Assembly: GCA_964467575.1 (NCBI GenBank) | Contig: CAYXRG010000001.1 | Location: forward strand, 42,652 to 106,651 | DNA from: an uncultured Caldilineaceae bacterium | Lineage (GTDB): Bacteria > Chloroflexota > Anaerolineae > Caldilineales > Caldilineaceae | DNA length: 64,000 nt | Direction: 5' to 3' | Made by a program: the position numbers and the translations under genes | Notes under the pieces: generated by a model | What the model saw: the letters and a program-made list of their open reading frames with translations, nothing else | Told to the model about the DNA's origin: nothing | Database searches by the model: none | In this document: positions 10,531-27,652 of the stretch, one piece after another | Numbering within the stretch: the first letter of the stretch is position 1 | Layout of the letters: each line of letters opens with the position of its first letter

Positions 10531-10580
10531 TCGGTACGCGGCGCGGGTAAAGCCCGCACCATCCTCCTGATATCTGTAAT

Positions 10581-10620
10581 TCAGAGACCGGAGCCGCTCA
10601 GAGGTTGCTCCGGTCTCTGA
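10581..10620 (+). terminator. perfect 14-bp stem hairpin between the binding-protein and permease genes
   Basis: TCAGAGACCGGAGC (10581-10594) and GCTCCGGTCTCTGA (10607-10620) with a 12-nt loop. No U-tract follows. It is likely an intercistronic attenuator or mRNA-stabilising element. Confidence 0.4.
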
Positions 10621-10647
10621 AGACAGCCGTGTAGATAAGGCAACATC

Positions 10648-11586: not shown

Positions 11587-11637
11587 TCATCGTAGATCTG
11601 ACCATACGCATATCGGGACGGAAGAGAGAGCGTTCAT

Positions 11638-12531: not shown

Positions 12532-12563
12532 TCCCTCACGCACAACGTCACGAACGGCTTTTC

Positions 12564-12597
12564 GTACGTCAAGCGTCAAGTATGGCGCTTGACGTAC
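12564..12597 (+). promoter_or_regulatory. 12-bp perfect inverted repeat (GTACGTCAAGCG, 10-nt spacer, CGCTTGACGTAC) ahead of the second Gfo/Idh/MocA gene
   Basis: Read directly. GCTTGACG occurs a third time at 12615-12622. It could be an operator or an intercistronic hairpin. Confidence 0.3.
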
Positions 12598-12652
12598 TAC
12601 ATATTTCGATTCACGCTTGACGCGCCACTCCTCAATTGAAAGGCCCCAACAT

Positions 12653-13885
12653 ATGAGCCATGATCATCTTCGCCTCGCCTTCATCGGCTGCGGCAACATT
12701 GCCCGCCGCCATATCGTCGCCATGAAGGACCTCGTCGACCGCGGGCGCGGCGGCTTCCAGGTAGTAGCCCTCTGCGACGCCAACCTTGATTCCGCACACG
12801 CCCTGGCGCAGACCGTCAAAGAGCAATTGGACGGCGCGCCTACCGTATACACCTCATACGAGGAGATGCTCTCCGCGGAAAAGCTCGACGGCGTGGATAT
12901 CTGTCTGCCGCATGGCTTGCACCACACTGTCGCCATCGCCTGTATGGAAGCCGGCGTCGACGTCCTCTGTGAGAAACCCATCGGCGTCTCCGTCCGCGCC
13001 GGGCGTTTGATGGAGCAAGCTGCCGAGCGAACAGGACGGATTCTCTCAATCGCCGTGCCGCACCGCCGCCAACCGGGCCAGCGCGTCGCACATTGGGCGC
13101 TAAACCAGTCCGGCTTGATGGGTTCGCCGCTCACCTTTTTCCACCACTATACCCGCCCGCCGGAACCGCGCGACCCCAACCAACCGCTGCCCCCACGCGT
13201 CGTCTGGCGGCGAAACCGTCTCATGTCCGGCGGCGGCATGACGCTGGATAGCGGCTTCCACTACTGCGATAGCATCCGCTATCTGCTGGGTGACGTCGAC
13301 AAGGTGTACGCAGAAATGCGCGAACTCCAGTCCGGTCGCCCTGTGCCTGTTTCCGAGCGTCCGGAGGACACCATCTATGTGACCTTCACCTTCAAGAGCG
13401 GGCTAGTAGGCGTATGGAACTGGAGCGTCGCCGCGCCGGGAGATGCGCGCGCCAGCGTCGTATTCTACGGCAGCGAAGGCTCGCTGGAGGATACAACACC
13501 CAGCCGCTTCCGCATCTTCCACCTCTTCGAGCGTCGCCCCGAACTGAATGAATCCGGCCAATTGGTTCGGCACGACGGCAGCGTGCTACAGATGCACGAA
13601 TTGGAGGCCCGGTACCGAGAGCAACTGAACGAGGCGCAAAGCGAACTGCTCTTCCCAGGCGGATCGACGGACGGCTTCGCCATCGAGATATGGGAATTCC
13701 TCGAACTCCTGCGCGGCAACCGCACACAGCCGGAGGTCGATGCCGCCGAGGGTATTCGTTCATTGGCCTTAGGCGATGCCATTTACGAATCCGCCTTCAC
13801 CGGCGATGTGGTGCGCGTGGATGACATCCTCTCTGGCGCACGTCGCACTTTCCAGGAATCTATTGACGAACACTGGGGCCTCTAG
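12653..13885 (+). CDS. Gfo/Idh/MocA-family oxidoreductase
   Basis: ATG at 12653 with GAAAGG upstream. Motifs include LRLAFIGCGNIARRH (Rossmann) and CEKPIG (EKP). Length is 410 aa. Confidence 0.9.
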   Translation: MSHDHLRLAFIGCGNIARRHIVAMKDLVDRGRGGFQVVALCDANLDSAHALAQTVKEQLDGAPTVYTSYEEMLSAEKLDGVDICLPHGLHHTVAIACMEAGVDVLCEKPIGVSVRAGRLMEQAAERTGRILSIAVPHRRQPGQRVAHWALNQSGLMGSPLTFFHHYTRPPEPRDPNQPLPPRVVWRRNRLMSGGGMTLDSGFHYCDSIRYLLGDVDKVYAEMRELQSGRPVPVSERPEDTIYVTFTFKSGLVGVWNWSVAAPGDARASVVFYGSEGSLEDTTPSRFRIFHLFERRPELNESGQLVRHDGSVLQMHELEARYREQLNEAQSELLFPGGSTDGFAIEIWEFLELLRGNRTQPEVDAAEGIRSLALGDAIYESAFTGDVVRVDDILSGARRTFQESIDEHWGL

Positions 13886-13902
13886 ACAAAAGGAGGAGAT
13901 GG

Positions 13903-14895
13903 ATGAAACTCGGAGTAGATGTCTTCAGCCTTCGCTTCAACGACTGGAGCGCGCATGAGCTACTCGACTATGCGCACAGTATCGGCGTCGACGTCGTGCA
14001 TTTCTCCGAAGTGCATTTCTTCGAGAGCCTAGACAGAAGCTATCTCGAACAGGTGAAACGCCATGCTGACGAGTTAGGTATCGGGATCGAGGTCGGCATG
14101 GCTTCGATCTGCCCCACGTCGACCACGTTCTCGCCTGCACGCGGGACCGCGAGCGAGCAGTTGGTAGAGATGCTCCACGTCGCCGCGCTTATGGAGTCGC
14201 CCGCGCTGCGCTGTTACATGGGCTCCAACGCCGACCGCCGCACTGATCTTCCCTTCGACGCTCACCAGGCAGCGACGGTCGAGACATTACAGTCGGTGCG
14301 CAGTCTCGCCCTTGAACTAGGCGTCAAGATCGCCATCGAAAATCACGCCGGTGACATGCAAGGACGAGAGTTGGCTGCGCTCATTGAACGGGCGGGTCCC
14401 GACTTCGTGGGCGCGTGCATCGACACGGGCAACCCCCTCTGGGTAGCGGAAAGCCCCTTCGTCACGTTGGAACACGTAGCGCCCTATGTCCTCATGTGTC
14501 ATGTGCGCGACACCGCGCTCTGGCGCCATCCGCTTGGAGCTGTAGCCCAGTGGGTAGCCATCGGCGAAGGGACGATCGGCATCGACGAGTGGACGCACGT
14601 CTTCCGCCAACGCTGCCCCGACGCCATCTACACGCTGGAGGTTATCACCAGCCTGGCGCCGCGTGTGCTCAACTACCTAGAGCCGGAGTTCTGGTCCGTA
14701 TACCCGCACACGCCCGCTGCGGAGTTCGCTCGCTTCCTGCAACTCGTCGAAACGGGTCGCCCCTACACCAAGCCGATCCTGACCGCCGACGCGGCCTCTA
14801 TGCCGCCCGAATATCGCGCCGCCCTGGCGCGGCAACAGCGCACCAAACTTGAGCAGAGCGTCCGTTACTGTCGCGATGTCCTGCAGATCGTCTGA
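13903..14895 (+). CDS. sugar phosphate isomerase/epimerase (xylose-isomerase-like TIM barrel)
   Basis: Family pattern: KIAIENHAG, CIDTGN and HVRD. The start lies 17 nt after the preceding Gfo gene and has a GGAGGAG RBS. Confidence 0.8.
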   Translation: MKLGVDVFSLRFNDWSAHELLDYAHSIGVDVVHFSEVHFFESLDRSYLEQVKRHADELGIGIEVGMASICPTSTTFSPARGTASEQLVEMLHVAALMESPALRCYMGSNADRRTDLPFDAHQAATVETLQSVRSLALELGVKIAIENHAGDMQGRELAALIERAGPDFVGACIDTGNPLWVAESPFVTLEHVAPYVLMCHVRDTALWRHPLGAVAQWVAIGEGTIGIDEWTHVFRQRCPDAIYTLEVITSLAPRVLNYLEPEFWSVYPHTPAAEFARFLQLVETGRPYTKPILTADAASMPPEYRAALARQQRTKLEQSVRYCRDVLQIV

Positions 14896-14936
14896 GCCAA
14901 CCGCCTAGCCCATACACTATATAATGAGGTGAACCC

Positions 14937-17636
14937 ATGCCCAAGCCGCGCAAAATTCGCGCCCACTACGTACTTAGCACACACTGGGACCGCGAATGGT
15001 ACCAATCCTTTCAAAATTTCCGCTTTCAGCTCGTCCGTCTACTGGACCGTGTCGTCGACGGGCTAGAGGACGGCCGTCTCCAAGGCCCGTTCCAAACCGA
15101 CGGACAGGCCATCATCCTTGAGGACTACCTCGAAATCAGGCCAGATAAGCGCAGCAAGCTCGAAGAGTTGGCGCAAGCGGGCCGCATGGTGATCGGCCCG
15201 TGGTATGTTCTCCCCGATGAGTTCCTCGTCTCCGGCGAGTCGTTGGTGCGCAATCTGCGCCTCGGTCGCAGCATCGCCCGCAGTTACGGCGTGGAACCGT
15301 CCAACGCAGGCTTCGTCTGCGACCTATTCGGCCACAATAGCCAGATGCCCCAAATCCTCGCCGGGTTCGGCATCAACGGCGGGCTCATCTGGCGCGGCAT
15401 CAACCACCTTCAGTCACGACACGTTCGTTGGCGCTCGCCGGACGGCACCGAGTTGCTCGCCTACCGTTTTCCTGTGGGCGGCTACTGCGACTTCGCCTTT
15501 CAGGTGCGCCACGCGCGCGACTACGAAACGCCGACCACAGCCGCTCGCGTCGCCGAGGACCTGCGCGCCTATCTGCGCCACGAAGCCGAGCATACCGAAG
15601 TCGACCCAATCCTGCTCTTCGACGGCGGCGATCACGAGGAGTGGGACCAGCAAGTCTATGCCGCCATGCTCGATTACGCGGGCAAGGAGGATGAGTTTGA
15701 GATCGTCCACACCAGTCTCGACGCCTATCTTGCCGAGGCGATTCCCCAGGCCAGCCGCGTAGGCGCCGTGGTCGAAGGCGAGCTGCGCGAGCCGGGCACG
15801 CTTCTCTATGATCAGCAGTGGGTGATCCCCGGCGTCCTCTCCAGCCGCGTCTGGATCAAGCAGCTAAACGCGCTGTGCGAGACCTCGCTCTGCACCTGGG
15901 CGGAGCCGACCGCAGCATGGGCGCATCTACAACTAGGCCATGAGGTTCCCCAGGGCTTCTTGGACACCGCATGGAAATGGCTGCTTCAGAATCATCCCCA
16001 TGACTCGATCTGTGGCTGCAGCATCGACGTGGTGCACGAAGACATGAAGTACCGCTTCAGCCAATGCCAACAGATCACCGAACGTCTCACCGTGGAGGCA
16101 ACGCGCAGCCTCGCCGCCAACGTCTCGGGCGGAGTGGGCGACGACGAACTGCGCGTCGTCGTATTCAACCCGCTCACAACCCCCATATCTGCGACCACCG
16201 AGTTGGACCTTCAGATTCCTGTGGACTGGCCGACGTTCAACGAATTCTTTGGGTTCGAGCCGAAACCCTCATTCCGCATCTACGGGCCTGACGGAGAAGA
16301 GATCCCGTACCAGCGCCTGCGCCAGACCAAGAATCGCTTGAAGGGCCGCATCTACGAAACTAAGTTCCCGGTAACGTACCGCACCCATGACGTGCTCGTC
16401 TCGCTGCCGCTCGACATCCCCGCTTCCGGCTATACGACATTGACCGTACGCGCAGGCGGTAAACGAGAGCCGACCCGTTATCCGGTCGTTCCGGGCATGG
16501 CGACGAGCGAACGCTCGATGGCGAACGAGCATCTCGCCGTAGCAATCCAGCCCAACGGCTCGCTCACCATGCGCGACAAACGCACCGGCGCCATCTACGA
16601 ACGGCTGCTGACCTTCGAAGACATTGCCGACATCGGCGACGGTTGGTATCACGGTATGGCCGTCAACGACCAGACTTTCACGTCGACTGCCAGCTCGGCG
16701 GCTGTTGCCCTTGTTCACGACGGCCCGCAGCTAACCACTTTCTACATCCGCACCGTGATGCAGACGCCGCACCGCTTCGTGTTTGGCGATGAGATGCAGC
16801 GTTCGCCGGAACTAGTCGACCTGGTGATCGAAAACTGGATCAGCCTGCGCCCAGGAGCCGCGCACCTGGAGGTTGAGACGGCAGTCCATAACGTTGCCGA
16901 GGATCACAGGCTGCGCGTCCTCTTCCCCAGCGGCGCACAGACCGACACGTACCTGGCCGACAGCCCATTCGACGTTGTTGAACGGCCCATCGCCCTTAGC
17001 AGTGACAACCATCTCTTCCGCGAGTTGGAAGTCGAAACCAAACCGCAGCAGATGTGGACTGCCGTTTTCGACAACGACCGCGGTCTAGCGGTGGTCAGCA
17101 CCGGCTTGCTCGAAAGCGCTATCCGCGATACCCCGGAGCGCACACTGGCCTTGACCCTGCTGCGCAGCACCAGAACCACCGTCGGCACGGATGGCGAACC
17201 GAACGGGTTGCTACTCGGCACATCCAAGTTCCGCTACTGGATCGCGCCGCTGACCGGCGCACCGGATCGCGTTTCCCTCTTCCGGATGGGCCAGCAGCTT
17301 GCCGCCGGCCTGTACGACGTCCAACTCCGTCCAGAAGACATAGCGCTGCATCAGGAGAGCGGTAGACTGCCTGCGGCTGCTTCGTTCCTACGCGTCGATG
17401 GAGATGTTGTGGTCACCAGCGCGCGCATGGTCGACGGCGGCTTCGAGATGCGTTCCTTCAATCCCACCGATCAGCCCGCGGAGGTTGCGATCAGCTTTGG
17501 CAACGACATCCGCTTTTCGCACCTCCAATTTGTCAATTTGGAGAGTAGCCCACTTGACAGACCGGTCCAGATTACCGATAGTATGGCGGTCGTCACGCTC
17601 GAACCGAGAAAGATAGCTACTTACCGATTCCAATAA
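14937..17636 (+). CDS. glycoside hydrolase family 38 alpha-mannosidase (cytoplasmic, MngB/mannosylglycerate-hydrolase-like size)
   Basis: The N-terminal HYVLSTHWDREWY (HxDxxW) and GPWYVLPDEFL motifs are hallmark GH38. Length is 899 aa. No signal peptide is present. Confidence 0.85.
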   Translation: MPKPRKIRAHYVLSTHWDREWYQSFQNFRFQLVRLLDRVVDGLEDGRLQGPFQTDGQAIILEDYLEIRPDKRSKLEELAQAGRMVIGPWYVLPDEFLVSGESLVRNLRLGRSIARSYGVEPSNAGFVCDLFGHNSQMPQILAGFGINGGLIWRGINHLQSRHVRWRSPDGTELLAYRFPVGGYCDFAFQVRHARDYETPTTAARVAEDLRAYLRHEAEHTEVDPILLFDGGDHEEWDQQVYAAMLDYAGKEDEFEIVHTSLDAYLAEAIPQASRVGAVVEGELREPGTLLYDQQWVIPGVLSSRVWIKQLNALCETSLCTWAEPTAAWAHLQLGHEVPQGFLDTAWKWLLQNHPHDSICGCSIDVVHEDMKYRFSQCQQITERLTVEATRSLAANVSGGVGDDELRVVVFNPLTTPISATTELDLQIPVDWPTFNEFFGFEPKPSFRIYGPDGEEIPYQRLRQTKNRLKGRIYETKFPVTYRTHDVLVSLPLDIPASGYTTLTVRAGGKREPTRYPVVPGMATSERSMANEHLAVAIQPNGSLTMRDKRTGAIYERLLTFEDIADIGDGWYHGMAVNDQTFTSTASSAAVALVHDGPQLTTFYIRTVMQTPHRFVFGDEMQRSPELVDLVIENWISLRPGAAHLEVETAVHNVAEDHRLRVLFPSGAQTDTYLADSPFDVVERPIALSSDNHLFRELEVETKPQQMWTAVFDNDRGLAVVSTGLLESAIRDTPERTLALTLLRSTRTTVGTDGEPNGLLLGTSKFRYWIAPLTGAPDRVSLFRMGQQLAAGLYDVQLRPEDIALHQESGRLPAAASFLRVDGDVVVTSARMVDGGFEMRSFNPTDQPAEVAISFGNDIRFSHLQFVNLESSPLDRPVQITDSMAVVTLEPRKIATYRFQ

Positions 17637-17645
17637 AAGGACAAG

Positions 17646-19034
17646 ATGGCAGCCGGTCAAATCGCTCGTACAACTTCCGCTCGAATCCCCACCGATGCAG
17701 GCGATTTCCGGCTCTTCCACTACGTCGGAACTGACCGTAAGGAACACCTCGCCCTCGTCATGGGCGAGGTGTTCGGCGCCGAAAACGTGTTGGCGCGCGT
17801 CCACTCAGAGTGCTTCACCGGCGACGTGCTTGGCTCGCTGCGCTGCGACTGCGGCGAACAACTCCACGCGGCCATGCACCGTATTGCCGCCGAAGGTCGA
17901 GGCGTAATCATATATCTCCGTCAAGAAGGCCGCGGCATCGGTTTGGCGCAAAAGTTGCGCGCCTACAACCTCCAAGACGAAGGTTATGACACGGTTGACG
18001 CGAATCTCTTGCTGGGCCACCAAGCCGACGAGCGGGAGTATTCGGCGGCTGCGGCCATCTTCGGCGATCTGGACGTGCGCTCGATCCGCCTCATGACCAA
18101 CAATCCCTCCAAGCTGGCGCACCTTTCTGAACTGGGCATCCGAATATCGGAGCGCGTACCGCTTCAACCCAGCGTCACAGCCGAAAACGCTGCATATCTG
18201 CGCACCAAGGTGCAGCGCATGCAACACCTCCTCAACTTGCCGCCGGCAATTAACGGGGCCGCGCCGGAATTCGCACTTTCCGAATCTCGCCTGCAGCAGT
18301 TGCTCGAGAGGCTCCTAGCACGCGCCGAAGCGCACTACGCTGCGCACCGTGTCCCCTTTGTGACGCTCAGCTATGCCCAATCGCTCGACGGGAGCATCGC
18401 CGCCGCCGACAGGTCGCCTCTTCGACTGAGCGGCCCCGCGGCCATGCGGCTGACGCACGCCCTGCGTGCCATGCATGACGCGATCCTGGTCGGCGTCGGC
18501 ACAGTTCTTGCCGACGATCCGCGCCTAACCGTACGGCTGGTGGAAGGCGCCCAGCCCCGACCCGTGATTCTGGACAGCCGTCTGCGCATCCCCCGCGATG
18601 CGCGCGTGTTTCAACACCCACAACGCCCGTGGATTGCCGCCGTTCAGTCGGAGCACGTGGCGATCGCCCAGACGCGCATGCCTCGCGCGGATATTCTCTC
18701 TATTCCACAAGACAAGCATGGGCAGGTGGATCTCGAGCGCCTGCTCATTGAACTCGGCAGGCGCGGCATCCGCCACGTTATGGTGGAGGGCGGCGCACAG
18801 GTGCTCAGTAATCTGTTGCGTCTAGGCCTCGCGAACTATGCGGTCATCACCCTGGCCCCTCGCTTCTTAGGCGGCTACCACGTATTTTCTCAACCAGACG
18901 GCAGGCCGGCCTCAACACCCGCCCTGCTCGACGTCGAGCATACTAGCGCCGGCAGTGAGGTAATTCTCTGGGGCGATGTCGCCGCGCCGCAGCCGGCCGC
19001 CGTCGCGGCGACGACAACTGCGGCTGCGGAGTAG
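17646..19034 (+). CDS. fusion protein: GTP cyclohydrolase II (RibA) plus RibD C-terminal-type pyrimidine reductase domain
   Basis: The N-terminal half has RVHSECFTGDVLGSLRCDCGEQL, YLRQEGRGIGL and RAYNLQDEGYDTVDAN (GCH II). The C-terminal half has VTLSYAQSLDGSIAA...HDAILVGVGTVLADDPRLTVR...VMVEGGAQV (RibD_C reductase). No cytidine-deaminase-type domain is present. Confidence 0.85.
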   Translation: MAAGQIARTTSARIPTDAGDFRLFHYVGTDRKEHLALVMGEVFGAENVLARVHSECFTGDVLGSLRCDCGEQLHAAMHRIAAEGRGVIIYLRQEGRGIGLAQKLRAYNLQDEGYDTVDANLLLGHQADEREYSAAAAIFGDLDVRSIRLMTNNPSKLAHLSELGIRISERVPLQPSVTAENAAYLRTKVQRMQHLLNLPPAINGAAPEFALSESRLQQLLERLLARAEAHYAAHRVPFVTLSYAQSLDGSIAAADRSPLRLSGPAAMRLTHALRAMHDAILVGVGTVLADDPRLTVRLVEGAQPRPVILDSRLRIPRDARVFQHPQRPWIAAVQSEHVAIAQTRMPRADILSIPQDKHGQVDLERLLIELGRRGIRHVMVEGGAQVLSNLLRLGLANYAVITLAPRFLGGYHVFSQPDGRPASTPALLDVEHTSAGSEVILWGDVAAPQPAAVAATTTAAAE

Positions 19035-19038
19035 GTAG

Positions 19039-20049
19039 ATGGCGGAACTGCCGGTACAGGCTGTAGTCTTCACGGCGCCCTATACGGTCGAAGTGCGTAA
19101 TCTACCCATCGACGCACCTGCGCACGATCGCCTGCTTGTGAACACGCGTGTCTCGGCCATCAGCGCCGGAACCGAGTTGCTCTTCTACCGCAATCAAGTC
19201 CCCCCCGACATGCCGGTAGACAGCGCCATCGCCGCGCTCACCGGTCATGCCCGCTATCCGCTCCACTACGGTTACGCCTGCATTGGAGAAATCGCAGCCG
19301 TCGGGCCGGAGGGCGATACGGGCATGGTCGGGCGTTCCGTCTTCGCATTTCATCCACACGCAAGCCGCTTCACGGTCGCCCCTGCCGATGTGGTCGAACT
19401 GCCGCCGGAGATGGACGCCGAGCAGGCCTCCTTCCTGCCCAACATGGAGACGGCCGTCTCTCTGCTTATGGACGCCGCACCGTTGATCGGCGAGCGCGTG
19501 CTCGTCTTCGGCCAGGGCGTTGTCGGCCTGCTGGTCACATTCCTTCTCGCCCAAATGCCACTCAGCAGCGTTGTCACCGTGGAGCCTCTTGCCGGGCGCA
19601 GACGACTTTCACTGGCATTGGGCGCGTCCCTGTCGGTTCAGCCTGATGCTCTCGTCGGTCTGGAGATGGACTCGCCTGACCTTATCCTGGAACTCAGCGG
19701 AAATCCGCACGCGCTGGACCAGGCGGTTCAGGCCGCCGGGTATGCCACGCGCATAGTCGTCGGCTCTTGGTACGGCACAAAACCCGTAGAGTTAACCCTG
19801 GGCGGACGCTTCCACCGCAACCGCAATGCCCTGATCTCAAGCCAAGTCAGCACGATACCGCCTGCGCTGACGGGACGGTGGACAAAGCGCAGACGCCTGT
19901 TCTCTGCGTTGCGCAGCCTCCAAATGCTGCCCTATAAAGAACTGATCTCGCACCGCATTCCGGTGCACCACGCGTCCGAAGCCTATCGACTGCTTGACCA
20001 GAATCCCGATCAAGCCCTACAGGTATTGCTCACATATCGAAATATGTAA
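19039..20049 (+). CDS. medium-chain dehydrogenase/reductase superfamily protein lacking the catalytic Zn ligands
   Basis: GroES-like N-domain followed by a FGQGVVG Rossmann motif. The usual CGxCxSD and GHE positions read SAISAGTELL and YGYACIGE, so no Zn site is predicted. Confidence 0.75.
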   Translation: MAELPVQAVVFTAPYTVEVRNLPIDAPAHDRLLVNTRVSAISAGTELLFYRNQVPPDMPVDSAIAALTGHARYPLHYGYACIGEIAAVGPEGDTGMVGRSVFAFHPHASRFTVAPADVVELPPEMDAEQASFLPNMETAVSLLMDAAPLIGERVLVFGQGVVGLLVTFLLAQMPLSSVVTVEPLAGRRRLSLALGASLSVQPDALVGLEMDSPDLILELSGNPHALDQAVQAAGYATRIVVGSWYGTKPVELTLGGRFHRNRNALISSQVSTIPPALTGRWTKRRRLFSALRSLQMLPYKELISHRIPVHHASEAYRLLDQNPDQALQVLLTYRNM

Positions 20050-20092
20050 CGCCGCGCGGCAATGAGCCGCCGACGATCACACAGAGGCATCC

Positions 20093-20479
20093 ATGTACAC
20101 ACTAGCAGTGAAGCGAGATTTCGTAGCTCAGCATTACCTGATCGGCGGAGACTGGGGTGCTGAAAATGACTGGCATTCCCATCATTACGCGCTAGAACTC
20201 CAGCTAACCGGCTCAGAACTGGATCGCCACGGCTACCTGGTTGATATCGTGGCCGTCGAGCGAGAATTGAATGAGATTGTGTCCCGTTACCGCGACAAGA
20301 CGCTCAACGACCTCCCCGAGTTCGATGGTCTCAACCCTAGCATCGAACACTTCACGCGCATCGTCTGCGAAGCCTTAGCCCAGCAGCTCAGTTTTCTCAA
20401 TCTCGACTCAATTTGCATCAAGATCTGGGAGAACGACATCGCCTGGGCAAGCTATCGGCTGGCGCTCCCTCGGCGTTAA
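20093..20479 (+). CDS. PTPS/QueD-fold (6-pyruvoyl-tetrahydropterin synthase family) protein, atypical active site
   Basis: 128 aa. The pattern DFVAQHY...WHSHHYALELQL...LNDL...NPSIEH follows the QueD/PTPS pattern (three His plus Glu). The catalytic Cys and the DHH segment are not conserved. Confidence 0.8.
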   Translation: MYTLAVKRDFVAQHYLIGGDWGAENDWHSHHYALELQLTGSELDRHGYLVDIVAVERELNEIVSRYRDKTLNDLPEFDGLNPSIEHFTRIVCEALAQQLSFLNLDSICIKIWENDIAWASYRLALPRR

Positions 20480-20489
20480 GTTTCTGCGG

Positions 20490-21596
20490 ATGGCCTTACG
20501 CATCGCCCTCATCATCTACGGCGACCTGTCTACAACGTCCGGCGGTTTTCTCTATGACCGGATGCTCGTGCAGCGCCTGCGCTCGGCTGGCGCACAGGTG
20601 GAGATCATCGCCCTCCCCTGGCGCAGTTATGTGCGCCATTTATTCGACAACTTCTCGCAGAGTTTACTTGAGTGTCTCGCTGCCCGCGGGCGATACGATA
20701 TCGTCCTGCAAGATGAGCTAAATCACCCGTCGCTATTCCTGCTGAACTGGAGACTGCGAAGGCAACAGGGCCGTCCGCCGCTTGTCTCTATCGTTCACCA
20801 TCTGCGCAGCGACGAGCAGCATCCGCCATACTTGCGGGCCGTATATCGCACCGTGGAGGGCATCTACCTGCGCTCCGTCGACGGCTTCATCTGTAACAGT
20901 GAGTCCACCAGAGCCAGAGTTCGTGCACATCGCAACGGGCATCTCGACGGCGTCACCGCCTACCCGGCAGCCAACCATATAGGGCCGCCCGCCGCTGAGC
21001 GGGTTCACGCCCTCATCGCAGAGCGTTGCCGGCATAGCAGCCCGTTACAGGTTCTCTTTGTCGGTAACGTCATCCCGCGTAAAGGCTTGCATACGCTTCT
21101 TGTCGCCCTCGGCGCACACATGCGCGCCGAGTTCCGCCTGCATGTCGCGGGCAGCCTCGAGACCGATCCTGCATATGCAGCCCAGATAGCACACGCTGTA
21201 CGCCGGCTAGGTCTTGAGCAACGGACCGCGCTCTATGACAGCGTCTCCATCGAGCAACTGCGCGATCTCTATCGCACCTGCGACATACTCGCCGTGCCGT
21301 CATATGAGGGGTTTGGCATCGTCTACCTAGAGGCAATGAGTTTCGGCATGCCCGTCATCGCCGCCACAACCGGGGCCGCCCACGAGATCGTCACCGACCG
21401 TATCGACGGCTTCCTCGTGCCGCCCGGCGACGCCAAGGCGATTGGCGACGCCATTTCGGCGTTGGCAGCAGACAGGACCCTGCTGGCCCGCATGGGCGAA
21501 GCAGCACGCAAACGCTACGATCGCCATCCCACTTGGCATGAAACCTTCTCCCAGACACAAGCCTGGCTGTGGCAGTTCGCCAGGCAGGCGCATTGA
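20490..21596 (+). CDS. GT4-family (GT-B, group 1) glycosyltransferase
   Basis: The N-terminus has a TTSGG donor-fold start. The C-terminus has EGFGIVYLEAMSFGMPVIAATTGAAHEIV (E-x7-E region). Confidence 0.85.
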   Translation: MALRIALIIYGDLSTTSGGFLYDRMLVQRLRSAGAQVEIIALPWRSYVRHLFDNFSQSLLECLAARGRYDIVLQDELNHPSLFLLNWRLRRQQGRPPLVSIVHHLRSDEQHPPYLRAVYRTVEGIYLRSVDGFICNSESTRARVRAHRNGHLDGVTAYPAANHIGPPAAERVHALIAERCRHSSPLQVLFVGNVIPRKGLHTLLVALGAHMRAEFRLHVAGSLETDPAYAAQIAHAVRRLGLEQRTALYDSVSIEQLRDLYRTCDILAVPSYEGFGIVYLEAMSFGMPVIAATTGAAHEIVTDRIDGFLVPPGDAKAIGDAISALAADRTLLARMGEAARKRYDRHPTWHETFSQTQAWLWQFARQAH

Positions 21597-21597
21597 A

Positions 21598-22566
21598 ATG
21601 GTATCCGATCAACCGCAAACTTTTACGCGCTATCTGGCGTCGAAGCGTACAGTAGACGACCGCGCCCTGAATGCCCACGTCTGGCAACGCTTCGCCCACA
21701 CGGTTCGCCGCTTCAATGACGATCGATCCGCGCCTGTGCGGATGCTGGAATTGGGCGCGGGCATTGGTACTATGATCGAGCGGCTCCTTGCCGCCGGTCT
21801 GCTGCACAATGCCGAGTACATTGCCATTGACGCCTCTGCAGAGAACATCGAACTCGCAGCTGAGCGTCTCAGACAGCAGGCAGCCGCAGACGGACGCAGC
21901 GCAGCCGTCGCGCCGCATGCGCCGGGTACGGGTCCAGCCTATGCGATCGAGTTAGCTCCGGACAGGGCGTCTACGGTCCGTCTAATGACCGCCGATGCGT
22001 TCGACTACCTGGCGGGCAAGGCTGCGGCCGTCGACGTCCTGCTCGCCCACGCGTTCCTCGACCTGGTGAACCTGCCGCGCATCCTAGAGGCCATCCGCCC
22101 CGCGCTCGCCCCAGACGCTCTGCTATACTTCACGATCAATTTCGACGGAGCGACCATTCTTGAACCCACGATCGATCCGGCCCTGGATGAACTGATCGAG
22201 CGGCTTTACCACGCGACAATGGATAGCCGCCTGGTCGACGGCCGCAACTCCGGCGACAGCCGTACAGGCCGCCATCTCTACCACTCCCTGCTCAATGCCG
22301 GCTATGAAGTGCTTGCCGCGGGCGCGTCCGATTGGGTGGTCGGCCCCATGCCTGACGGTTACCCAGACGACGAAGCCTTTTTCTTGCATTTCATTGTCGA
22401 CACCATCGCCGGCGCACTAGAGGACAACCCGGCTCTTGACCGAGCCGTATTCGCGCAATGGATAACTGAGCGTCATCGCCAGATCGACCAACATCGTTTG
22501 GTCTTCATTGCGCACCAACTTGACTACCTGGCTCGGCCGCGAGCGCAGCGAGGCGCGCCGGCCTAA
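21598..22566 (+). CDS. class I SAM-dependent methyltransferase
   Basis: ATG at 21598, one nt after the GT4 stop. Motif I is MLELGAGIGTMIERLL. The ORF-track start at 21442 overlaps the GT4 gene and is rejected. Confidence 0.8.
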   Translation: MVSDQPQTFTRYLASKRTVDDRALNAHVWQRFAHTVRRFNDDRSAPVRMLELGAGIGTMIERLLAAGLLHNAEYIAIDASAENIELAAERLRQQAAADGRSAAVAPHAPGTGPAYAIELAPDRASTVRLMTADAFDYLAGKAAAVDVLLAHAFLDLVNLPRILEAIRPALAPDALLYFTINFDGATILEPTIDPALDELIERLYHATMDSRLVDGRNSGDSRTGRHLYHSLLNAGYEVLAAGASDWVVGPMPDGYPDDEAFFLHFIVDTIAGALEDNPALDRAVFAQWITERHRQIDQHRLVFIAHQLDYLARPRAQRGAPA

Positions 22567-22581: not shown

Positions 22582-22612
22582 ACAGGCCGCCCACATACAA
22601 GCGGCGGCCTGT
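22582..22612. terminator. 10-bp GC-rich hairpin between convergent genes
   Basis: ACAGGCCGCC (22582-22591) pairs with GGCGGCCTGT (22603-22612) across an 11-nt loop. It lies between the methyltransferase stop (22566) and the hydrolase stop (22667). Confidence 0.45.
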
Positions 22613-26315: not shown

Positions 26316-26864
26316 TCACTCGCCAGGCTGCCATGACAGGGTGAAGGCGCGCTGCGCTTCGGTCTCGGGCGAAGGCCGAGCTGCGTCGGGCGTTTGTTTT
26401 CGCAGAGTCTGTATCGCCGTCATCAAGTCCTGGCCGCGCGCCAGCTCGTGCCGCGCTAAGAAACAGCCCACAACCGTACCGGTACGGCCGATCCCGCCCC
26501 AGCAATGGACGTACACCCGCTTCCCCTCATCCAGCGCTTCATCGATCGTGTCCAAAATGTCCGCCATCAGTTCCCGCGACGGCACGGAAACATCACGGAT
26601 CGGCAAGCGGCGATACCGCACACGCCGGCCCGCATCCTGCGCCAAGACGAGCAAGTCTGCGACGTACGGCCTCAACCCTTCCACGCCTTCTTCCGTGAGG
26701 TCGATATAAACGTCAACCCCGGCTTCCAGAAACGCCTTGAGTTTGGCGTTTGTCTCCGCGTAGGTTGGAGCGCCTGCGTATTCGCCGGCGAGCAGTTTGT
26801 CCGCGATCACCCAATACGAGCCAGAGATCGGTACGGGCAGACGGTCATTTTCCGCTTGAGCCAT
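26316..26864 (-). CDS. dual-specificity / protein-tyrosine phosphatase-like protein
   Basis: CX5R P-loop motif HCWGGIGRTGT. Length is 182 aa. Confidence 0.8.
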   Translation of the reverse strand: MAQAENDRLPVPISGSYWVIADKLLAGEYAGAPTYAETNAKLKAFLEAGVDVYIDLTEEGVEGLRPYVADLLVLAQDAGRRVRYRRLPIRDVSVPSRELMADILDTIDEALDEGKRVYVHCWGGIGRTGTVVGCFLARHELARGQDLMTAIQTLRKQTPDAARPSPETEAQRAFTLSWQPGE

Positions 26865-26935: not shown

Positions 26936-27652
26936 CTACAGCTTGATCCGCTTGAATGCTTCCGCATATTCGAGCCCCTGTTCCTTGCCTGCAGCACGCG
27001 CCCGTTCTCGGATCCGCTCATCAAGTTTCTCAAGGTCGGTTCCTACCTGGCTGACATGGCAGGATAGCGCTTGGATTCTGGCGCCGATGGTCGACGTTAT
27101 GTCTTCCCAATGGTCGGCATAATCCGTCCAGAACAGGTAAACTTCGCGCACACGCCACGGATCTTCATCGCCAACCAACTGCTCCGCAAAAAGGTTCCAC
27201 TCTCGCGCCGCCCATATCGCATCCAACGCTGCATACCCCGCCGCGCGATGGTCCGGGTGAAGCTGATATGCCTTCCACGGGTCGATAGCCAGCACGATAT
27301 GCGGCTTGTGATGGCGAATGATGCCGGCCAACTGGCCGCGCAGTGCTAACGTGTTCTCGAGAACACCGTCAGCATAGCGCAGAAATACTACGTTCTCGAC
27401 GCCCAGAACCTCAGCCGCTTTGCGCTGTTCCTTCTCGCGCAGAGCCGCCAACTGACCTGGCCGAATAGCCGGATCATGGCTGCCCTTATCGCCGCTTGTG
27501 AACAAAACATAGGTGATCTGCTTGCCTTCCGCCGCCCATTTTGCCACCGTACCGCCGCATCCGAATTCGGGATCGTCGGGATGCGCGGCGATCACCATTA
27601 CCCTGCTCAGGTCCTCTTGTGTCTGGATGTTTTCCGCCGTCGTCGTCACCAA
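26936..27652 (-). CDS. PIG-L/LmbE-family N-acetylglucosaminyl deacetylase
   Basis: AHPDDPEFGCGGT and HPDH motifs. Confidence 0.85.
   Translation of the reverse strand: MVTTTAENIQTQEDLSRVMVIAAHPDDPEFGCGGTVAKWAAEGKQITYVLFTSGDKGSHDPAIRPGQLAALREKEQRKAAEVLGVENVVFLRYADGVLENTLALRGQLAGIIRHHKPHIVLAIDPWKAYQLHPDHRAAGYAALDAIWAAREWNLFAEQLVGDEDPWRVREVYLFWTDYADHWEDITSTIGARIQALSCHVSQVGTDLEKLDERIRERARAAGKEQGLEYAEAFKRIKL

What the first reader, a model, noticed from the sequence alone, without database searches (positions are those of the whole stretch)
17646..22566. Tightly packed five-gene GTP-derived cluster: RibA-RibD(reductase) fusion, Zn-less MDR dehydrogenase, atypical PTPS/QueD fold, GT4 glycosyltransferase, SAM methyltransferase
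Seen in sequence: five co-directional genes are separated by only 4, 43, 10 and 1 nt and end at a hairpin (22582-22612).

Established knowledge: GTP cyclohydrolase II opens the riboflavin/F420/toxoflavin-type pyrimidine routes. PTPS/QueD T-fold enzymes normally use the GTP cyclohydrolase I product (dihydroneopterin triphosphate). Pteridine glycosyltransferases are known from cyanobacteria and green sulfur bacteria.

A GCH II plus reductase entry module, combined with a T-fold enzyme, a dehydrogenase, a glycosyltransferase and a methyltransferase, matches no textbook pathway that I can name.

Inference: the cluster makes a glycosylated and methylated pyrimidine, pteridine or flavin-like cofactor or secondary metabolite. 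The MDR member lacks the catalytic Zn ligands (SAISAGTELL and YGYACIGE in place of CGxCxSD and GHE), which points to a non-classical redox step.
Basis: partly seen in the sequence, partly recalled or inferred. Interest (0 to 1): 0.8.

Follow-up and report, generated by a model that had tools for sequence, protein, structure and literature searches.

The report
Conserved orphan GTP-derived biosynthetic operon
These five genes are a real operon, conserved from Chloroflexi and Streptomyces to salt-loving archaea, that pulls the first riboflavin intermediate out of GTP metabolism and turns it into a sugar-bearing, methylated compound that is still unidentified and, in many relatives, appears to be attached to a membrane lipid.

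Summary
Five co-directional genes (17646-22566) encode a GTP cyclohydrolase II/RibD-reductase fusion, a zinc-less BchC-like MDR dehydrogenase, an atypical PTPS-type T-fold protein, a GT4 glycosyltransferase and a SAM methyltransferase.

It is not a chance juxtaposition. Among 84 loci anchored on the MDR gene, PTPS is adjacent in 78, GT4 in 72, the methyltransferase in 66 and RibD_C in 62. These loci span Chloroflexota, Desulfobacterota, Binatia, Acidobacteriota, Halobacteria and Hadarchaeota. A divergent version is the Streptomyces SCO6650 locus.

No function is assigned in the literature I could search or in RefSeq.

New here:
- The reductase lacks a deaminase partner and carries Rib7/archaeal-type residues. 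The committed intermediate should therefore keep its 2-amino group.
- A dedicated CDP-alcohol phosphatidyltransferase lies within 8 kb in 30 of 84 loci, DUF7475 in 26 and a flippase-like protein in 17. This points to a lipid-linked product.

Best model (inferred, not shown): reductase plus NAD-dependent polyol-type dehydrogenase carry out a stepwise Amadori rearrangement. The T-fold protein then closes or processes a neopterin-phosphate-like pterin, which is glycosylated and methylated.

The product remains unknown. This is an interesting orphan pathway.

The parts
17554..17582 (+). Promoter-like site (TTGACA, 17 nt, GATAGT) inside the 3' end of the upstream GH38 gene, 64 nt before the first start codon
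   Evidence: 10 of 12 consensus matches. Only a consensus match, and promoter-like sites are not enriched in the region (2 found vs 2.6 expected).
17646..19034 (+). Fusion protein (462 aa): GTP cyclohydrolase II domain (about 17670-18161) plus RibD C-terminal pyrimidine reductase domain (about 18354-18965). There is no deaminase domain.
   Evidence: PF00925 3e-66; PF01872 3e-44; TIGR00505 above cut-off. KLRAY Tyr is present. Best PDB relatives of the reductase are the DARPP reductases 2azn, 6p8c and 4ha7. Ser occupies the position of B. subtilis RibG Lys151.
19039..20049 (+). Zinc-less MDR-superfamily dehydrogenase (336 aa), BchC-like, probably NAD-dependent
   Evidence: bchC model 84.5 bits, below its cut-off of 291. 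(invariant S39, G44, E46, G158, G160, G163; Glu183 in the window, Asp in most relatives, after beta-2). (both Zn sites lost). (AF2 pLDDT 89; nearest folds are TDH, RspB, idonate 5-DH, galactitol-1-P DH and sorbitol DH, TM 0.75-0.80).
20093..20479 (+). Atypical PTPS/QueD-type T-fold protein (128 aa), sister to 'PTPS-IV'
   Evidence: PF01242 9.5e-25. (best PDB hit 3D7J SCO6650, 6.5e-9). (family invariants H14, G22, E24, H30, D51, N72, E85, E113; motif GDWG[AP]ENxxHSH; no Cys/Asp-His triad).
20490..21596 (+). GT4 (GT-B) glycosyltransferase (368 aa)
   Evidence: (best PDB relatives: sucrose-phosphate synthase Tll1590, MshA, GlgM, BshA; the pterin glucosyltransferase BGluT matches only at 2.8e-9 over the C-terminal domain).
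21598..22566 (+). Class I SAM-dependent methyltransferase (322 aa) of a cluster-specific family (N-terminal FxRYLxxKxxVDDRALN)
   Evidence: (AF2 pLDDT 92; no close PDB neighbour, best TM 0.55). (454 clusters at 50% identity with E<=1e-30). (GT4-MT fusions).
22582..22612 (.). GC-rich hairpin between the convergent operon end and the alpha/beta-hydrolase gene; the T-run is on the minus strand

Best explanation
The region is an operon for an uncharacterised GTP-derived small-molecule pathway that is widely conserved in bacteria and archaea.

**Steps, with their status**
1. GTP cyclohydrolase II makes 2,5-diamino-6-ribosylamino-4(3H)-pyrimidinone 5'-phosphate (DARPP). *Family-level assignment; strong.*
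2. The fused Rib7/archaeal-type reductase reduces DARPP directly, without prior deamination, to the ribityl compound DARIPP. This diverts it from bacterial riboflavin synthesis and keeps the pterin-like 2-amino-4-oxo ring. *Inferred from domain content, residues and phyletic pattern.*
3. The conserved heart of the system is the zinc-less, NAD-type, polyol-dehydrogenase-like MDR together with the T-fold protein. The MDR most likely re-oxidises the ribityl C2' hydroxyl. Reduction followed by oxidation then amounts to a stepwise Amadori rearrangement, as in the aldose reductase/sorbitol dehydrogenase polyol pathway. The 5-amino group closes onto the new ketone in or with the help of the T-fold protein. 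This gives a 7,8-dihydroneopterin-3'-phosphate-like pterin or a processed derivative. *Inference; not shown.*
4. The GT4 enzyme adds a sugar to this phosphorylated polyol side chain, and the methyltransferase methylates the glycosylated product. *Inferred.*
5. In many relatives a dedicated CDP-alcohol phosphatidyltransferase, with a small DUF7475 membrane partner and a flippase-like protein, then couples the product to a membrane phospholipid and probably exposes it on the outer leaflet. In this window no such genes lie within 64 kb, so this step is either encoded elsewhere or absent here.
For: **Operon and families:**

**Synteny.** 84 MDR-anchored loci from at least six phyla and two domains carry PTPS (78), GT4 (72), MT (66), RibD_C (62) and GCHII (48), in the same order. 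The Streptomyces SCO6650 locus has MDR, PTPS, GT4, MT and a flippase-like gene, plus a CDP-alcohol transferase, a creatininase/ArfB-like gene and a GCHII homologue. Its MDR, GT4 and CDP-alcohol transferase match the cluster proteins at 29-39% identity; its methyltransferase matches only weakly, and the flippase-like protein is linked by its Pfam domain alone.

**DARIPP as the committed intermediate.**
- There is no deaminase domain.
- 36 of 49 GCHII genes are fused to RibD_C, and 46 of 49 keep the GCH II tyrosine.
- The reductase's best solved relatives are DARPP reductases, and the motif VPFVTLSYAQSLDG closely matches yeast Rib7 VPFVTLTYAQSLD.
- The RibG-Lys151 position is S, T, A or N, and never K, in the 61 of 64 cluster reductases where the motif was found.
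- Haloarchaea make DARIPP in housekeeping riboflavin synthesis (established knowledge). They carry the cluster without GCHII or RibD_C.
- The T-fold protein keeps the Glu that anchors a 2-amino-4-oxo ring (E113).

**Dehydrogenase role.** BchC-like motif, GxGxxG plus an acidic residue, and polyol-dehydrogenase fold neighbours.

**MDR plus T-fold as the core.** They are adjacent even where nothing else is, as in Hadarchaeota L077.

**GT4.** It resembles enzymes that glycosylate soluble phospho-sugars or polyols.

**GT4-MT coupling.** 1-nt spacing here and fusion proteins elsewhere.

**Lipid link.**
- CDP-alcohol transferase in 30 of 84 loci, DUF7475 in 26 and LPG_synthase_TM in 17. My rough chance expectation is about 2%.
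- They sit in-operon in haloarchaea.
- In Desulfobacterales, an ICMT/LmtA-like membrane methyltransferase replaces the soluble MT, and an LtaS-like 'sulfatase' is added.
Against: - No step after GCH II has been tested biochemically, and the product is unknown.
- The Streptomyces version has no reductase in the cluster, and its T-fold protein lacks the zinc ligands. Either the reduced intermediate or the zinc may therefore be dispensable.
- An alternative order fits the same genes: the T-fold protein performs the Amadori step and ring closure on DARPP, and RibD_C acts as a DHFR-like pterin reductase.
- H28 of the putative zinc site is lost in Dehalococcoidia.
- The window itself and most Caldilineaceae loci have no CDP-alcohol transferase nearby.
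- A lipidome study of Desulfatibacillum alkenivorans reported only PE, PG and cardiolipin head groups (PMC11150832). It is not known whether that strain carries the cluster. If it does, any lipid product would be minor.
- The fold searches for the methyltransferase and the GT4 comparisons were not discriminating.
- No riboswitch gives a clue to the ligand.
Confidence: 0.4

Rival explanations
1. A soluble pteridine glycoside, in the manner of cyanopterin, solfapterin or tepidopterin. The operon makes a free glycosylated, methylated pterin that serves as a UV-screening, photoreceptor or redox pigment or cofactor. The lipid genes seen in relatives belong to a separate function.
For: - The window and most Caldilineaceae and Dehalococcoidia loci have no CDP-alcohol transferase within 8 kb.
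- GT4 enzymes include the pterin glucosyltransferase BGluT (PDB 5zer, hit at 2.8e-9).
- Known pteridine glycosides include a methylated sugar (cyanopterin) and a neopterin 3'-glycoside (solfapterin) (PMC3546692).
- GT4-MT fusions fit methylation of the sugar.
Against: - The CDP-alcohol transferase sits in-operon with MDR, PTPS, GT4 and MT in haloarchaea. It recurs next to the cluster in Chloroflexota, Binatia, Desulfobacterota and Streptomyces.
- The membrane-embedded ICMT-like methyltransferase that replaces the soluble one in Desulfobacterales suggests a membrane-bound substrate.
- The GT4 protein is no closer to BGluT than to many other GT4 enzymes.
Confidence: 0.2
2. An aminopolyol or ribitylaminopyrimidine lipid head group with no pterin ring. 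The T-fold protein and MDR process DARIPP to a ribitylamine-type polyol phosphate (an aminopentanetetrol-like unit), or they keep the open pyrimidine. The CDP-alcohol transferase then installs this unit as a phospholipid head group, and it is glycosylated and methylated.
For: - The lipid-enzyme associations.
- 1-Amino-1-deoxyribitol is an aminopentanetetrol. APT lipids occur with N- and O-methylation, and I found no genes proposed for their biosynthesis in the papers I read (PMC6423904, PMC11346949).
- PIP-synthase/PgsA-type enzymes use polyol phosphates as acceptors (established knowledge).
Against: - APT lipids are reported from Methanomicrobiales, Aquificae and Thermodesulfobacterium. None of these appears among the 80 best loci.
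- In a survey of nine Halobacteria strains, APT was not found in any of them.
- A dehydrogenase is not needed to release ribitylamine.
- Spending GTP to make an aminopentitol is uneconomical.
Confidence: 0.12
3. A riboflavin/F420-related supply or salvage module. The T-fold protein ('PTPS-IV') and its partners supply 5-amino-6-ribitylaminouracil or a related precursor for flavin or deazaflavin cofactors.
For: - Zallot et al. [quoted passage not shown]
- PTPS-IV neighbourhoods contain PF00925 and PF01872 (PMC5445326 supplement).
- By general knowledge, many host lineages make F420.
Against: - The constant partners are a glycosyltransferase, a methyltransferase and often a CDP-alcohol transferase and a flippase-like protein. 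None of these has a role in known riboflavin or F420 synthesis.
- No CofG/H, FbiC, RibH or RibB-type genes were seen among the annotated neighbours.
- The window protein does not carry the PTPS-IV FGPAQ motif.
- The cluster is patchy within haloarchaea, so it is not housekeeping.
Confidence: 0.08
4. A chance juxtaposition, or an ordinary riboflavin operon with unrelated neighbours.
For: Each family is common on its own. Automated annotation gives ordinary names: bchC, QueD, zinc-binding dehydrogenase.
Against: - The same gene order recurs in 60-78 of 84 loci across phyla and in archaea.
- The genes show fusion and translational coupling.
- The cluster has no deaminase, and no RibB, RibH or RibE was seen among the annotated neighbours.
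- The residue pattern is not that of bacterial RibD.
Confidence: 0.01

Closest known systems
Streptomyces coelicolor SCO6650-SCO6655-type locus (PTPS-IV; PDB 3D7J)
   Same: - It has MDR, T-fold, GT4, methyltransferase and a flippase-like gene in the same order.
- It also has a CDP-alcohol phosphatidyltransferase and a GTP cyclohydrolase II homologue.
- SCO6650 is the closest solved relative of the window T-fold protein.
- The Streptomyces MDR, GT4 and CDP-alcohol transferase hit the cluster proteins at 29-39% identity; the methyltransferase matches only weakly.
   Different: - Streptomyces has the FGPAQ motif and lacks one His of the zinc triad.
- Its cyclohydrolase has Met in place of the GCH II Tyr (KLRAM). 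From my memory of Spoonamore and Bandarian 2008, this makes the formylated product.
- It has a creatininase/ArfB-like gene instead of a fused RibD_C reductase.
- As far as I could find, its pathway product is also unknown.
Archaeal/fungal riboflavin entry steps (GCH II or ArfA/ArfB, then the Rib7/ArfC DARPP reductase)
   Same: GTP cyclohydrolase II chemistry is followed by reduction before any deamination. The reductase motif and its best PDB hits are of the Rib7/MjaRED type.
   Different: Here the two activities are fused. They are followed not by a deaminase, lumazine synthase and riboflavin synthase, but by an MDR, a T-fold protein, GT4 and a methyltransferase.
GTP cyclohydrolase I and the PTPS/QueD (COG0720) T-fold enzymes
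   Same: - T-fold with a conserved Glu that anchors a 2-amino-4-oxopyrimidine ring, and (mostly) a three-His site.
- GCH I performs the Amadori rearrangement and ring closure that the proposed reductase, dehydrogenase and T-fold trio would achieve stepwise (established knowledge).
   Different: - None of the motifs CxxxHGH, CxxxxxHGH, ExxHGH or FGPAQ is present.
- There is no Cys/Asp-His triad.
- The context is GCH II rather than GCH I.
Pteridine glycoside biosynthesis (BGluT/PgtA; cyanopterin, solfapterin, tepidopterin)
   Same: A GT4-type transferase sits beside pterin-type enzymes. Natural products of this class carry sugars and, in cyanopterin, a methylated sugar.
   Different: - Those pathways start from GCH I and use canonical PTPS and sepiapterin reductase.
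- No lipid link is known for them.
- Similarity of the window GT4 to BGluT is only generic.
Phosphatidylinositol-phosphate synthase with PimA (CDP-alcohol transferase plus GT4), and the MprF flippase domain
   Same: In relatives, a PIP-synthase/PgsA-like CDP-alcohol transferase, a GT4 enzyme and an LPG_synthase_TM flippase-like protein sit together. This is the logic of making, glycosylating and flipping a polyol-phosphate lipid.
   Different: - The alcohol would be GTP-derived rather than inositol or glycerol.
- Scores to the PIP-synthase and PgsA models are far below their cut-offs.
- These genes are absent from this window.
BchC (3-hydroxyethyl bacteriochlorophyllide a dehydrogenase)
   Same: It is the best NCBIfam match. 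It shares the zinc-less SxISxGTExLFY ... YPLxxGY signature (the BchC motif is from memory).
   Different: The score of 84.5 is far below the cut-off of 291. There is no photosynthesis gene context, and the hosts are mostly non-phototrophs.
Toxoflavin (tox) cluster
   Same: GCH II, a RibD-family enzyme and a SAM methyltransferase work together from GTP.
   Different: By my knowledge of the pathway, the tox cluster uses a full deaminase-reductase and the ToxC/ToxD proteins. It has no MDR, T-fold protein or glycosyltransferase.

Membership tests
Bacterial riboflavin RibA/RibD module | GTP cyclohydrolase II domain with the catalytic Tyr (E. coli Y105) and the Zn cysteines | tested here: met
   PF00925 at 3e-66 and TIGR00505 at 247.7 bits, above its cut-off of 205.85. 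KLRAY and the HSEC...CDCG motif are present.
Bacterial riboflavin RibA/RibD module | Cytidine-deaminase-type deaminase domain attached to the reductase (RibD) | tested here: not met
   Only GTP_cyclohydro2 and RibD_C domains are found. The eubact_ribD model scores 110 against a cut-off of 156 and matches the reductase part only.
Bacterial riboflavin RibA/RibD module | Lys at the B. subtilis RibG K151 position (selects the deaminated substrate; role recalled from Chen et al. 2009) | tested here: not met
   The window has Ser. In the 64 cluster reductases the residue is S 40, T 16, A 3, N 2 and never K; in 3 the motif was not found.
Bacterial riboflavin RibA/RibD module | Co-location with ribB, ribH or ribE | tested here: not met
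   None was seen among the annotated neighbours between 9.1 and 33 kb of the window or in the annotated relatives.
Rib7/ArfC-type DARPP reductase | Closest similarity to characterised DARPP reductases, with the TL[ST]YAQSLD-type motif | tested here: met
   The top PDB hits are 2azn, 6p8c and 4ha7, at 85-87 bits against 80 for RibG. The motif closely matches yeast Rib7. TIGR01508 is below its cut-off (118.8 vs 186), so this is similarity, not equivalog membership.
PTPS-I (QueD) | CxxxHGH motif with the Cys/Asp-His catalytic triad | tested here: not met
   The window has E-N-D-W-H-S-H. QueD's D70/H71 align to D/K. TIGR03367 scores 43 against a cut-off of 89.
PTPS-II (6-pyruvoyltetrahydropterin synthase) | CxxxxxHGH motif | tested here: not met
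   There is no Cys upstream of HSH. The motif definition is from PMC5041015.
PTPS-III (folate branch) | ExxHGH motif | tested here: not met
   The spacing is ExxxHSH (E24 ... H28-S-H30). Family-wide the motif is G[PA]E[NG]xxH[SA]H.
PTPS-IV (SCO6650 type) | FGPAQ signature | tested here: not met
   The window has WGAEN and the family has WGPEN. G-P is shared, but E replaces A and the His triad is retained.
PTPS-IV (SCO6650 type) | Neighbourhood containing PF00925 and PF01872; SCO6650 as nearest relative | tested here: met
   The whole cluster is shared with the Streptomyces locus.
Zn-dependent MDR alcohol/polyol dehydrogenases | Catalytic Zn ligands (Cys, His, Glu) and the structural Zn Cys4 lobe | tested here: not met
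   Cys becomes Ala, GHE becomes GYA, and the lobe is deleted.
Zn-dependent MDR alcohol/polyol dehydrogenases | MDR fold with a Rossmann GxGxxG | tested here: met
   AF2 model with TM 0.75-0.80 to TDH, RspB, idonate DH and sorbitol DH. G158, G160 and G163 are invariant.
BchC | Score above the TIGR01202 cut-off, and a bacteriochlorophyll gene context | tested here: not met
   The score is 84.5 bits against a cut-off of 291.25. There are no bch genes in any of the neighbourhoods annotated.
Pteridine glycosyltransferase (BGluT/PgtA) | Specific similarity to BGluT beyond the generic GT4 fold | tested here: inconclusive
   5zer is hit at 2.8e-9 over the C-terminal domain only. This is weaker than SPS (2e-18) and MshA (6e-16).
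CDP-alcohol-dependent phospholipid head-group pathway | A CDP-alcohol phosphatidyltransferase encoded with the cluster | tested here: not met
   None is detectable in the 64-kb window with three cluster-type queries. It is met in 30 of 84 related loci and in Streptomyces.
CDP-alcohol-dependent phospholipid head-group pathway | A lipid product carrying the GTP-derived moiety | not testable with these tools
   This needs lipidomics of wild type against cluster mutants.
Toxoflavin-type azapteridine cluster | ToxC/ToxD-type proteins and a deaminase-reductase ToxE | tested here: not met
   There is no deaminase domain, and no other families lie between the five genes. ToxC and ToxD were not searched for specifically outside the operon.

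The most novel reading that the evidence does not exclude
The cluster encodes two things not described before.

1. A GTP-cyclohydrolase-I-independent, 'polyol-pathway-like' route to a pterin. The steps are GCH II, then a Rib7-type reductase, then an NAD-dependent MDR dehydrogenase, then a T-fold cyclase.
2. The use of that GTP-derived, glycosylated and methylated pterin or pyrimidine polyol phosphate as the polar head group of a membrane phospholipid. It would be installed by a dedicated CDP-alcohol phosphatidyltransferase with its DUF7475 partner, and flipped outward by an MprF-like protein. This would be a new lipid class shared by Chloroflexota, Desulfobacterota, Actinomycetota and Halobacteria. 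It might also serve as a donor for decorating the cell envelope through LtaS-like transferases.
Probability: 0.25. Interest if true: 0.9.

Novelty: new variant of a known kind. Interest (0 to 1): 0.72.

Why it matters
**Spread.** This cluster is widespread for something still uncharacterised. The cluster-specific methyltransferase forms 454 clusters at 50% identity. The hosts range from Streptomyces to haloarchaea.

**A new branch point.** The cluster starts from a textbook branch point and leaves it in a direction no textbook describes. Solving it would add a new fate for the first riboflavin intermediate.

**An open question.** It would explain the long-standing orphan T-fold subfamily around PTPS-IV/SCO6650. 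That protein's structure was solved in 2008 (from memory) without a function.

**Annotation.** It would correct systematic misannotation of these genes as 'bchC' and 'QueD'.

**Possible discoveries.** It might reveal a GCH-I-independent pterin route and a nucleotide-derived lipid head group.

**Testability.** Genetically tractable hosts carry versions of the cluster: Streptomyces coelicolor, and Halorubrum lacusprofundi among the haloarchaea. The question is therefore directly testable.

Tried and rejected
**Literature.** Nine full-text searches found nothing on the function of this cluster. They covered enzyme-name combinations, SCO gene numbers, PTPS subfamilies, pteridine glycosides, and CDP-alcohol plus pterin. 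Three key papers are not held: Phillips 2012, Spoonamore 2008 Acta F and Spoonamore 2008 Biochemistry.

**Aminopentanetetrol idea.** I read the APT lipid literature. The taxa do not overlap with the cluster hosts, so I demoted the idea.

**Unknown haloarchaeal head group.** The sulphur-containing head group C12H25NO13S fragments by sequential loss of SO3, a hexose and a C6 sugar unit, so I read it as a sulphated diglycosyl lipid and judged it unrelated.

**Methyltransferase structure.** The model is confident (pLDDT 92), but Foldseek finds only generic class I small-molecule methyltransferases, best TM 0.55. This gives no clue to the methyl acceptor.

**MDR structure.** It places the enzyme in the polyol-dehydrogenase branch but gives no substrate.

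**GT4 comparisons.** The PDB and NCBIfam comparisons do not discriminate.

**Riboswitches.** Rfam scans of the window and 14 loci found none.

**Apparent fusions judged unreliable.**
- PTPS-GT4 in L048 is probably a frameshift.
- L061 has an in-frame stop.
- The MDR-AceK fusion P0016 I judged a likely gene-call artefact, without checking.

**Other neighbourhoods.** The Hadarchaeota and Ignavibacteria loci added nothing.

**Lipidome.** The D. alkenivorans study shows only PE, PG and cardiolipin. This is weak evidence against a major lipid product, because it is not known whether that strain carries the cluster.

Full report

Yes. Mechanical ORF listing gives plus-strand ORFs at 17646-19034 (462 aa), 19039-20049 (336 aa), 20093-20479 (128 aa) and 20490-21596 (368 aa). 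A fifth ORF runs to 22566. Its biologically sensible start is ATG 21598. Homologues start at the equivalent Met, are 308-333 aa long and cover 94-98% of the 322-aa product. The spacers are therefore 4, 43, 10 and 1 nt, as reported.

Pfam and NCBIfam confirm every family call:
- GTP_cyclohydro2 (3e-66) and RibD_C (3e-44) in one protein
- a weak ADH_zinc_N match, below the Pfam cut-off
- PTPS (9.5e-25)
- Glycos_transf_1 / Glyco_transf_4
- Methyltransf_12

The hairpin at 22582-22612 exists and is stable (z = -4.1 against shuffles). However, the T-run that would make it an intrinsic terminator lies on the minus strand. It therefore looks like the terminator of the convergent alpha/beta-hydrolase gene. 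For the operon it is at most a bidirectional stop.

Upstream, a GH38 gene ends 9 nt before the first start codon. A TTGACA-17-GATAGT site lies at 17554-17582, but promoter-like sites are not enriched in this region. The upstream genes form a sugar-uptake and catabolic operon. Among the other loci, the GH38 query matched next to the cluster only in a Litorilinea relative. I treat it as a neighbour, not a part of the cluster.

**2. Is it more than chance?**

Clearly yes.

The MDR protein has thousands of relatives that are 50-56% identical across bacteria and archaea. I scanned one genome per GTDB species with an MDR alignment.

I ran tblastn of the window proteins against these loci and the loci. 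Within 8 kb of the MDR gene, in 84 loci including the window, it found:

| Gene | Loci (of 84) |
|---|---|
| PTPS | 78 |
| GT4 | 72 |
| Methyltransferase | 66 |
| RibD_C | 62 |
| GCH II | 48 |

The order is almost always GCHII-RibD_C-MDR-PTPS-GT4-MT.

Hosts include Caldilineaceae, Anaerolineae, Dehalococcoidia, Binatia, several Desulfobacterota, a Pyrinomonadaceae acidobacterium, an Ignavibacteria MAG, many Halobacteria (Halorubrum, Natrinema, Natronorubrum, Halococcus, Halopenitus, Natronoarchaeum, Halobellus) and a Hadarchaeota MAG.

The methyltransferase family is cluster-specific. It comprises 454 clusters at 50% identity with E<=1e-30.

**3. Has it already been assigned?**

I found no assignment. 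RefSeq names the haloarchaeal genes generically. It mislabels the T-fold protein as QueD with a queuosine GO term. JGI calls the MDR 'bchC'. Nine full-text searches found nothing on function.

The cluster type has nevertheless been glimpsed before.
- The best solved relative of the window T-fold protein is 3D7J, 'uncharacterized protein SCO6650' of Streptomyces coelicolor.
- Zallot et al. list the subfamily as PTPS-IV. They say it is involved in F420 synthesis, citing unpublished work, and that PTPS-V is of unclear function (PMC5041015).
- The AGeNNT paper notes that PTPS-IV neighbourhoods contain PF00925 and PF01872 (PMC5445326 supplement).

I fetched a Streptomyces locus around a 98%-identical SCO6650 homologue. 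It contains, in order:
- a CDP-alcohol phosphatidyltransferase (divergently transcribed)
- MDR, PTPS-IV, GT4, a methyltransferase and an LPG_synthase_TM flippase-like protein
- a creatininase/ArfB-like gene
- a GCH II homologue with KLRAM in place of KLRAY

From memory, Spoonamore and Bandarian (2008) reported two things. SCO6650 lacks zinc and PTPS activity. The Met-bearing cyclohydrolase SCO6655 stops at the formylated pyrimidine. I could not re-read those papers.

The Streptomyces MDR, GT4 and CDP-alcohol transferase hit the cluster proteins of my loci at 29-39% identity. The methyltransferase matches only weakly. This is the same system in a divergent form.

**4. What the individual proteins say**

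**(a) Cyclohydrolase.** It is a canonical GCH II, with the Zn cysteines and the Tyr.

**(b) Reductase.**
- It has no deaminase partner.
- It is fused to GCH II in 36 of 49 cases.
- Its best PDB matches are the DARPP reductases of M. jannaschii, another archaeon and yeast. Its VPFVTLSYAQSLDG motif closely matches yeast Rib7 VPFVTLTYAQSLD.
- At the position of B. subtilis RibG Lys151 the cluster reductases have S, T, A or N, and never K. From memory of Chen et al. 2009, that lysine selects the deaminated substrate. The motif was found in 61 of 64 reductases.
- Desulfobacterota often carry RibD_C without GCH II. Haloarchaea carry neither. This fits the fact that archaea already make the reduced, non-deaminated intermediate in housekeeping riboflavin synthesis (established knowledge).
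- I therefore infer that the committed substrate is 2,5-diamino-6-ribitylamino-4(3H)-pyrimidinone 5'-phosphate (DARIPP), which retains the pterin-like 2-amino-4-oxo edge.

**(c) MDR.**
- Both zinc sites are lost.
- It keeps GxGxxG and an acidic residue after beta-2, typical of NAD users.
- It shares the SxISxGTE ... YPLxxGY signature with BchC (the BchC motif is from memory).
- Its model (pLDDT 89) is closest to threonine, idonate, galactitol-1-phosphate, butanediol and sorbitol dehydrogenases.
- This makes it an ordinary-looking secondary-alcohol/polyol dehydrogenase, not an exotic redox enzyme.

**(d) T-fold protein.**
- It keeps the ring-anchoring Glu (E113).
- H14 and H30 are invariant. 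H28 is lost in Dehalococcoidia.
- There is a family-specific invariant Glu (E24).
- It lacks the Cys/Asp-His triad and all four published subfamily motifs.

**(e) GT4.** It is most similar to enzymes that glycosylate soluble phosphorylated sugars or polyols, or malate: sucrose-phosphate synthase, MshA, GlgM and BshA. Its similarity to the pterin glucosyltransferase BGluT is only generic.

**(f) Methyltransferase.** It is a confidently modelled class I enzyme without a close solved relative. GT4-MT fusion proteins exist. In two Desulfobacterales loci a membrane-embedded ICMT/LmtA-like methyltransferase takes its place.

**5. The unexpected neighbourhood**

Within 8 kb of the MDR gene I found:

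| Gene | Loci (of 84) |
|---|---|
| CDP-alcohol phosphatidyltransferase (weakly PIP-synthase/PgsA-like) | 30 |
| DUF7475 small membrane protein | 26 |
| LPG_synthase_TM / flippase-like protein (TIGR00374, HpnL-like) | 17 |

- In Natronorubrum the order is DUF7475, CDP-alcohol transferase, MDR, T-fold, GT4, MT, all on one strand. In Halopenitus the MDR, CDP-alcohol transferase, T-fold, GT4 and MT are likewise co-directional.
- In Streptomyces the transferase and the flippase-like gene flank the core.
- Desulfobacterales add an LtaS-like 'sulfatase'.
- A typical genome has only a handful of CDP-alcohol transferases. My rough estimate is that chance adjacency would be a few per cent at most.

This is the strongest new clue. 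In many lineages the product is probably joined to a phospholipid and moved across the membrane.

Three caveats apply:
- The window and most Caldilineaceae and Dehalococcoidia loci lack these genes nearby.
- A published lipidome of Desulfatibacillum alkenivorans lists only PE, PG and cardiolipins, although it is not known whether that strain carries the cluster.
- Any such lipid may therefore be minor, conditional, or a carrier.

**6. Most likely mechanism**

| Step | Status |
|---|---|
| Enzyme families, gene order, conservation | Shown |
| DARIPP as entry compound | Inferred, good support |
| All later steps | Inferred, moderate to weak support |

The reductase converts the ribosylamine to a ribitylamine. 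The NAD-type polyol dehydrogenase then oxidises C2'. Together these two steps equal the Amadori rearrangement that GTP cyclohydrolase I performs in one active site. They mirror the aldose reductase/sorbitol dehydrogenase polyol pathway. The free 5-amino group then condenses with the new ketone. The T-fold protein, a relative of GCH I and PTPS, catalyses or follows this ring closure. The result is a dihydroneopterin-3'-phosphate-like pterin.

GT4 then glycosylates the phosphorylated side chain, and the methyltransferase modifies the glycoside. Where present, the CDP-alcohol transferase attaches a phosphatidyl or archaetidyl group. This follows the precedent of polyol-phosphate acceptors in PIP and PGP synthases.

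An equally gene-compatible variant exists. The T-fold protein could do the Amadori step and ring closure on DARPP, with RibD_C acting as a DHFR-like pterin reductase. The Streptomyces cluster has no reductase, which keeps this variant alive.

**7. Rivals**

- **A soluble pteridine glycoside.** This is possible for this organism.
- **An aminopentanetetrol-like or open-pyrimidine lipid head group.** The idea is attractive because ribitylamine is an aminopentanetetrol and I found no proposed route to APT in the papers I read. The taxa do not match, however.
- **An F420/riboflavin-related role.** The only support is an unpublished remark on PTPS-IV. The constant GT4, MT and lipid partners argue against it.
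- **Chance.** Refuted.

**8. Verdict**

The finding is real and is not explained by any known pathway. It belongs to a large, cross-domain family of orphan clusters, of which the Streptomyces SCO6650 locus is the only partly studied example.

I rate it as a new variant of a known kind: a GTP-derived pterin/pyrimidine biosynthetic operon. There is a substantial chance that it hides something categorically new, namely a GCH-I-independent pterin route and a nucleotide-derived lipid head group. Interest is 0.72.

Noticed in passing
window 9118-17636 (+): A sugar-uptake and catabolic operon ends 9 nt before the cluster. It encodes a solute-binding protein, two ABC permeases, a GFO/IDH/MocA oxidoreductase, a xylose-isomerase-like TIM barrel and a GH38 mannosylglycerate-hydrolase-like enzyme. 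Among the other loci, the GH38 query matched next to the cluster only in Litorilinea locus L035.
   Followed up: partly
window 26936-27652 (-): A PIG-L family (GlcNAc de-N-acetylase, MshB/BshB-like) gene lies 4.4 kb downstream of the cluster. It could deacetylate a GlcNAc-bearing product, as in solfapterin or mycothiol logic, or it could be unrelated.
   Followed up: no
window 29262-31094 (+): A 610-aa protein with a C-terminal Sulfatase (PF00884) domain, which I take to be LtaS/EptA-like. It is 29% identical to the 'sulfatase' gene that sits inside the Desulfobacterales version of the cluster (L005 11625-13310).
   Followed up: partly
window 26316-26864 (-): A small dual-specificity/PTP-type phosphatase domain protein (PF22785, PF22784) lies between the S41 peptidase and the PIG-L gene.
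   Followed up: no
L002 9876-10262; L039 8223-8573; L088 9148-9516: DUF7475, a membrane protein of about 120 aa with no known function, is adjacent to the cluster-type CDP-alcohol phosphatidyltransferase and in places overlaps it. This is seen in both haloarchaea and Chloroflexota and suggests a two-subunit enzyme.
   Followed up: partly
L087 13919-14608 (Streptomyces): The cluster-linked GTP cyclohydrolase II homologue has KLRAM instead of KLRAY. A creatininase/ArfB-like gene sits next to it. Together these form an archaeal-style two-step route to DARPP inside a bacterial cluster.
   Followed up: partly
L005 9032-9976; L044: In two Desulfobacterales loci the soluble methyltransferase is replaced by a membrane-embedded ICMT/LmtA-like (PEMT family) methyltransferase, inserted between the MDR and T-fold genes.
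   Followed up: partly
L048 about 11160-12653: An apparent PTPS-GT4 fusion ORF (506 aa) has an altered PTPS C-terminus. It is most likely a frameshift in a long-read MAG rather than a true fusion. Genuine-looking GT4-MT fusions do exist (P0499 at 676 aa; P0367).
   Followed up: partly
public annotation (P0010 and others; L088 5825-6220): Family-wide over-annotation. JGI names the MDR '2-desacetyl-2-hydroxyethyl bacteriochlorophyllide A dehydrogenase'. RefSeq names the T-fold protein '6-carboxytetrahydropterin synthase' with a queuosine GO term.
   Followed up: yes
L064 13406-14071; L083 about 7025: In two Anaerolineae loci the RibD_C reductase is a separate, more archaeal-like protein (NVAMTLDGK motif). 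It is placed after the methyltransferase instead of being fused to GCH II.
   Followed up: no
whole window: GC skew is negative in every 2-kb bin, and the cumulative skew falls steadily to -3.07. The 64 kb therefore contains no skew switch, meaning no origin or terminus.
   Followed up: no
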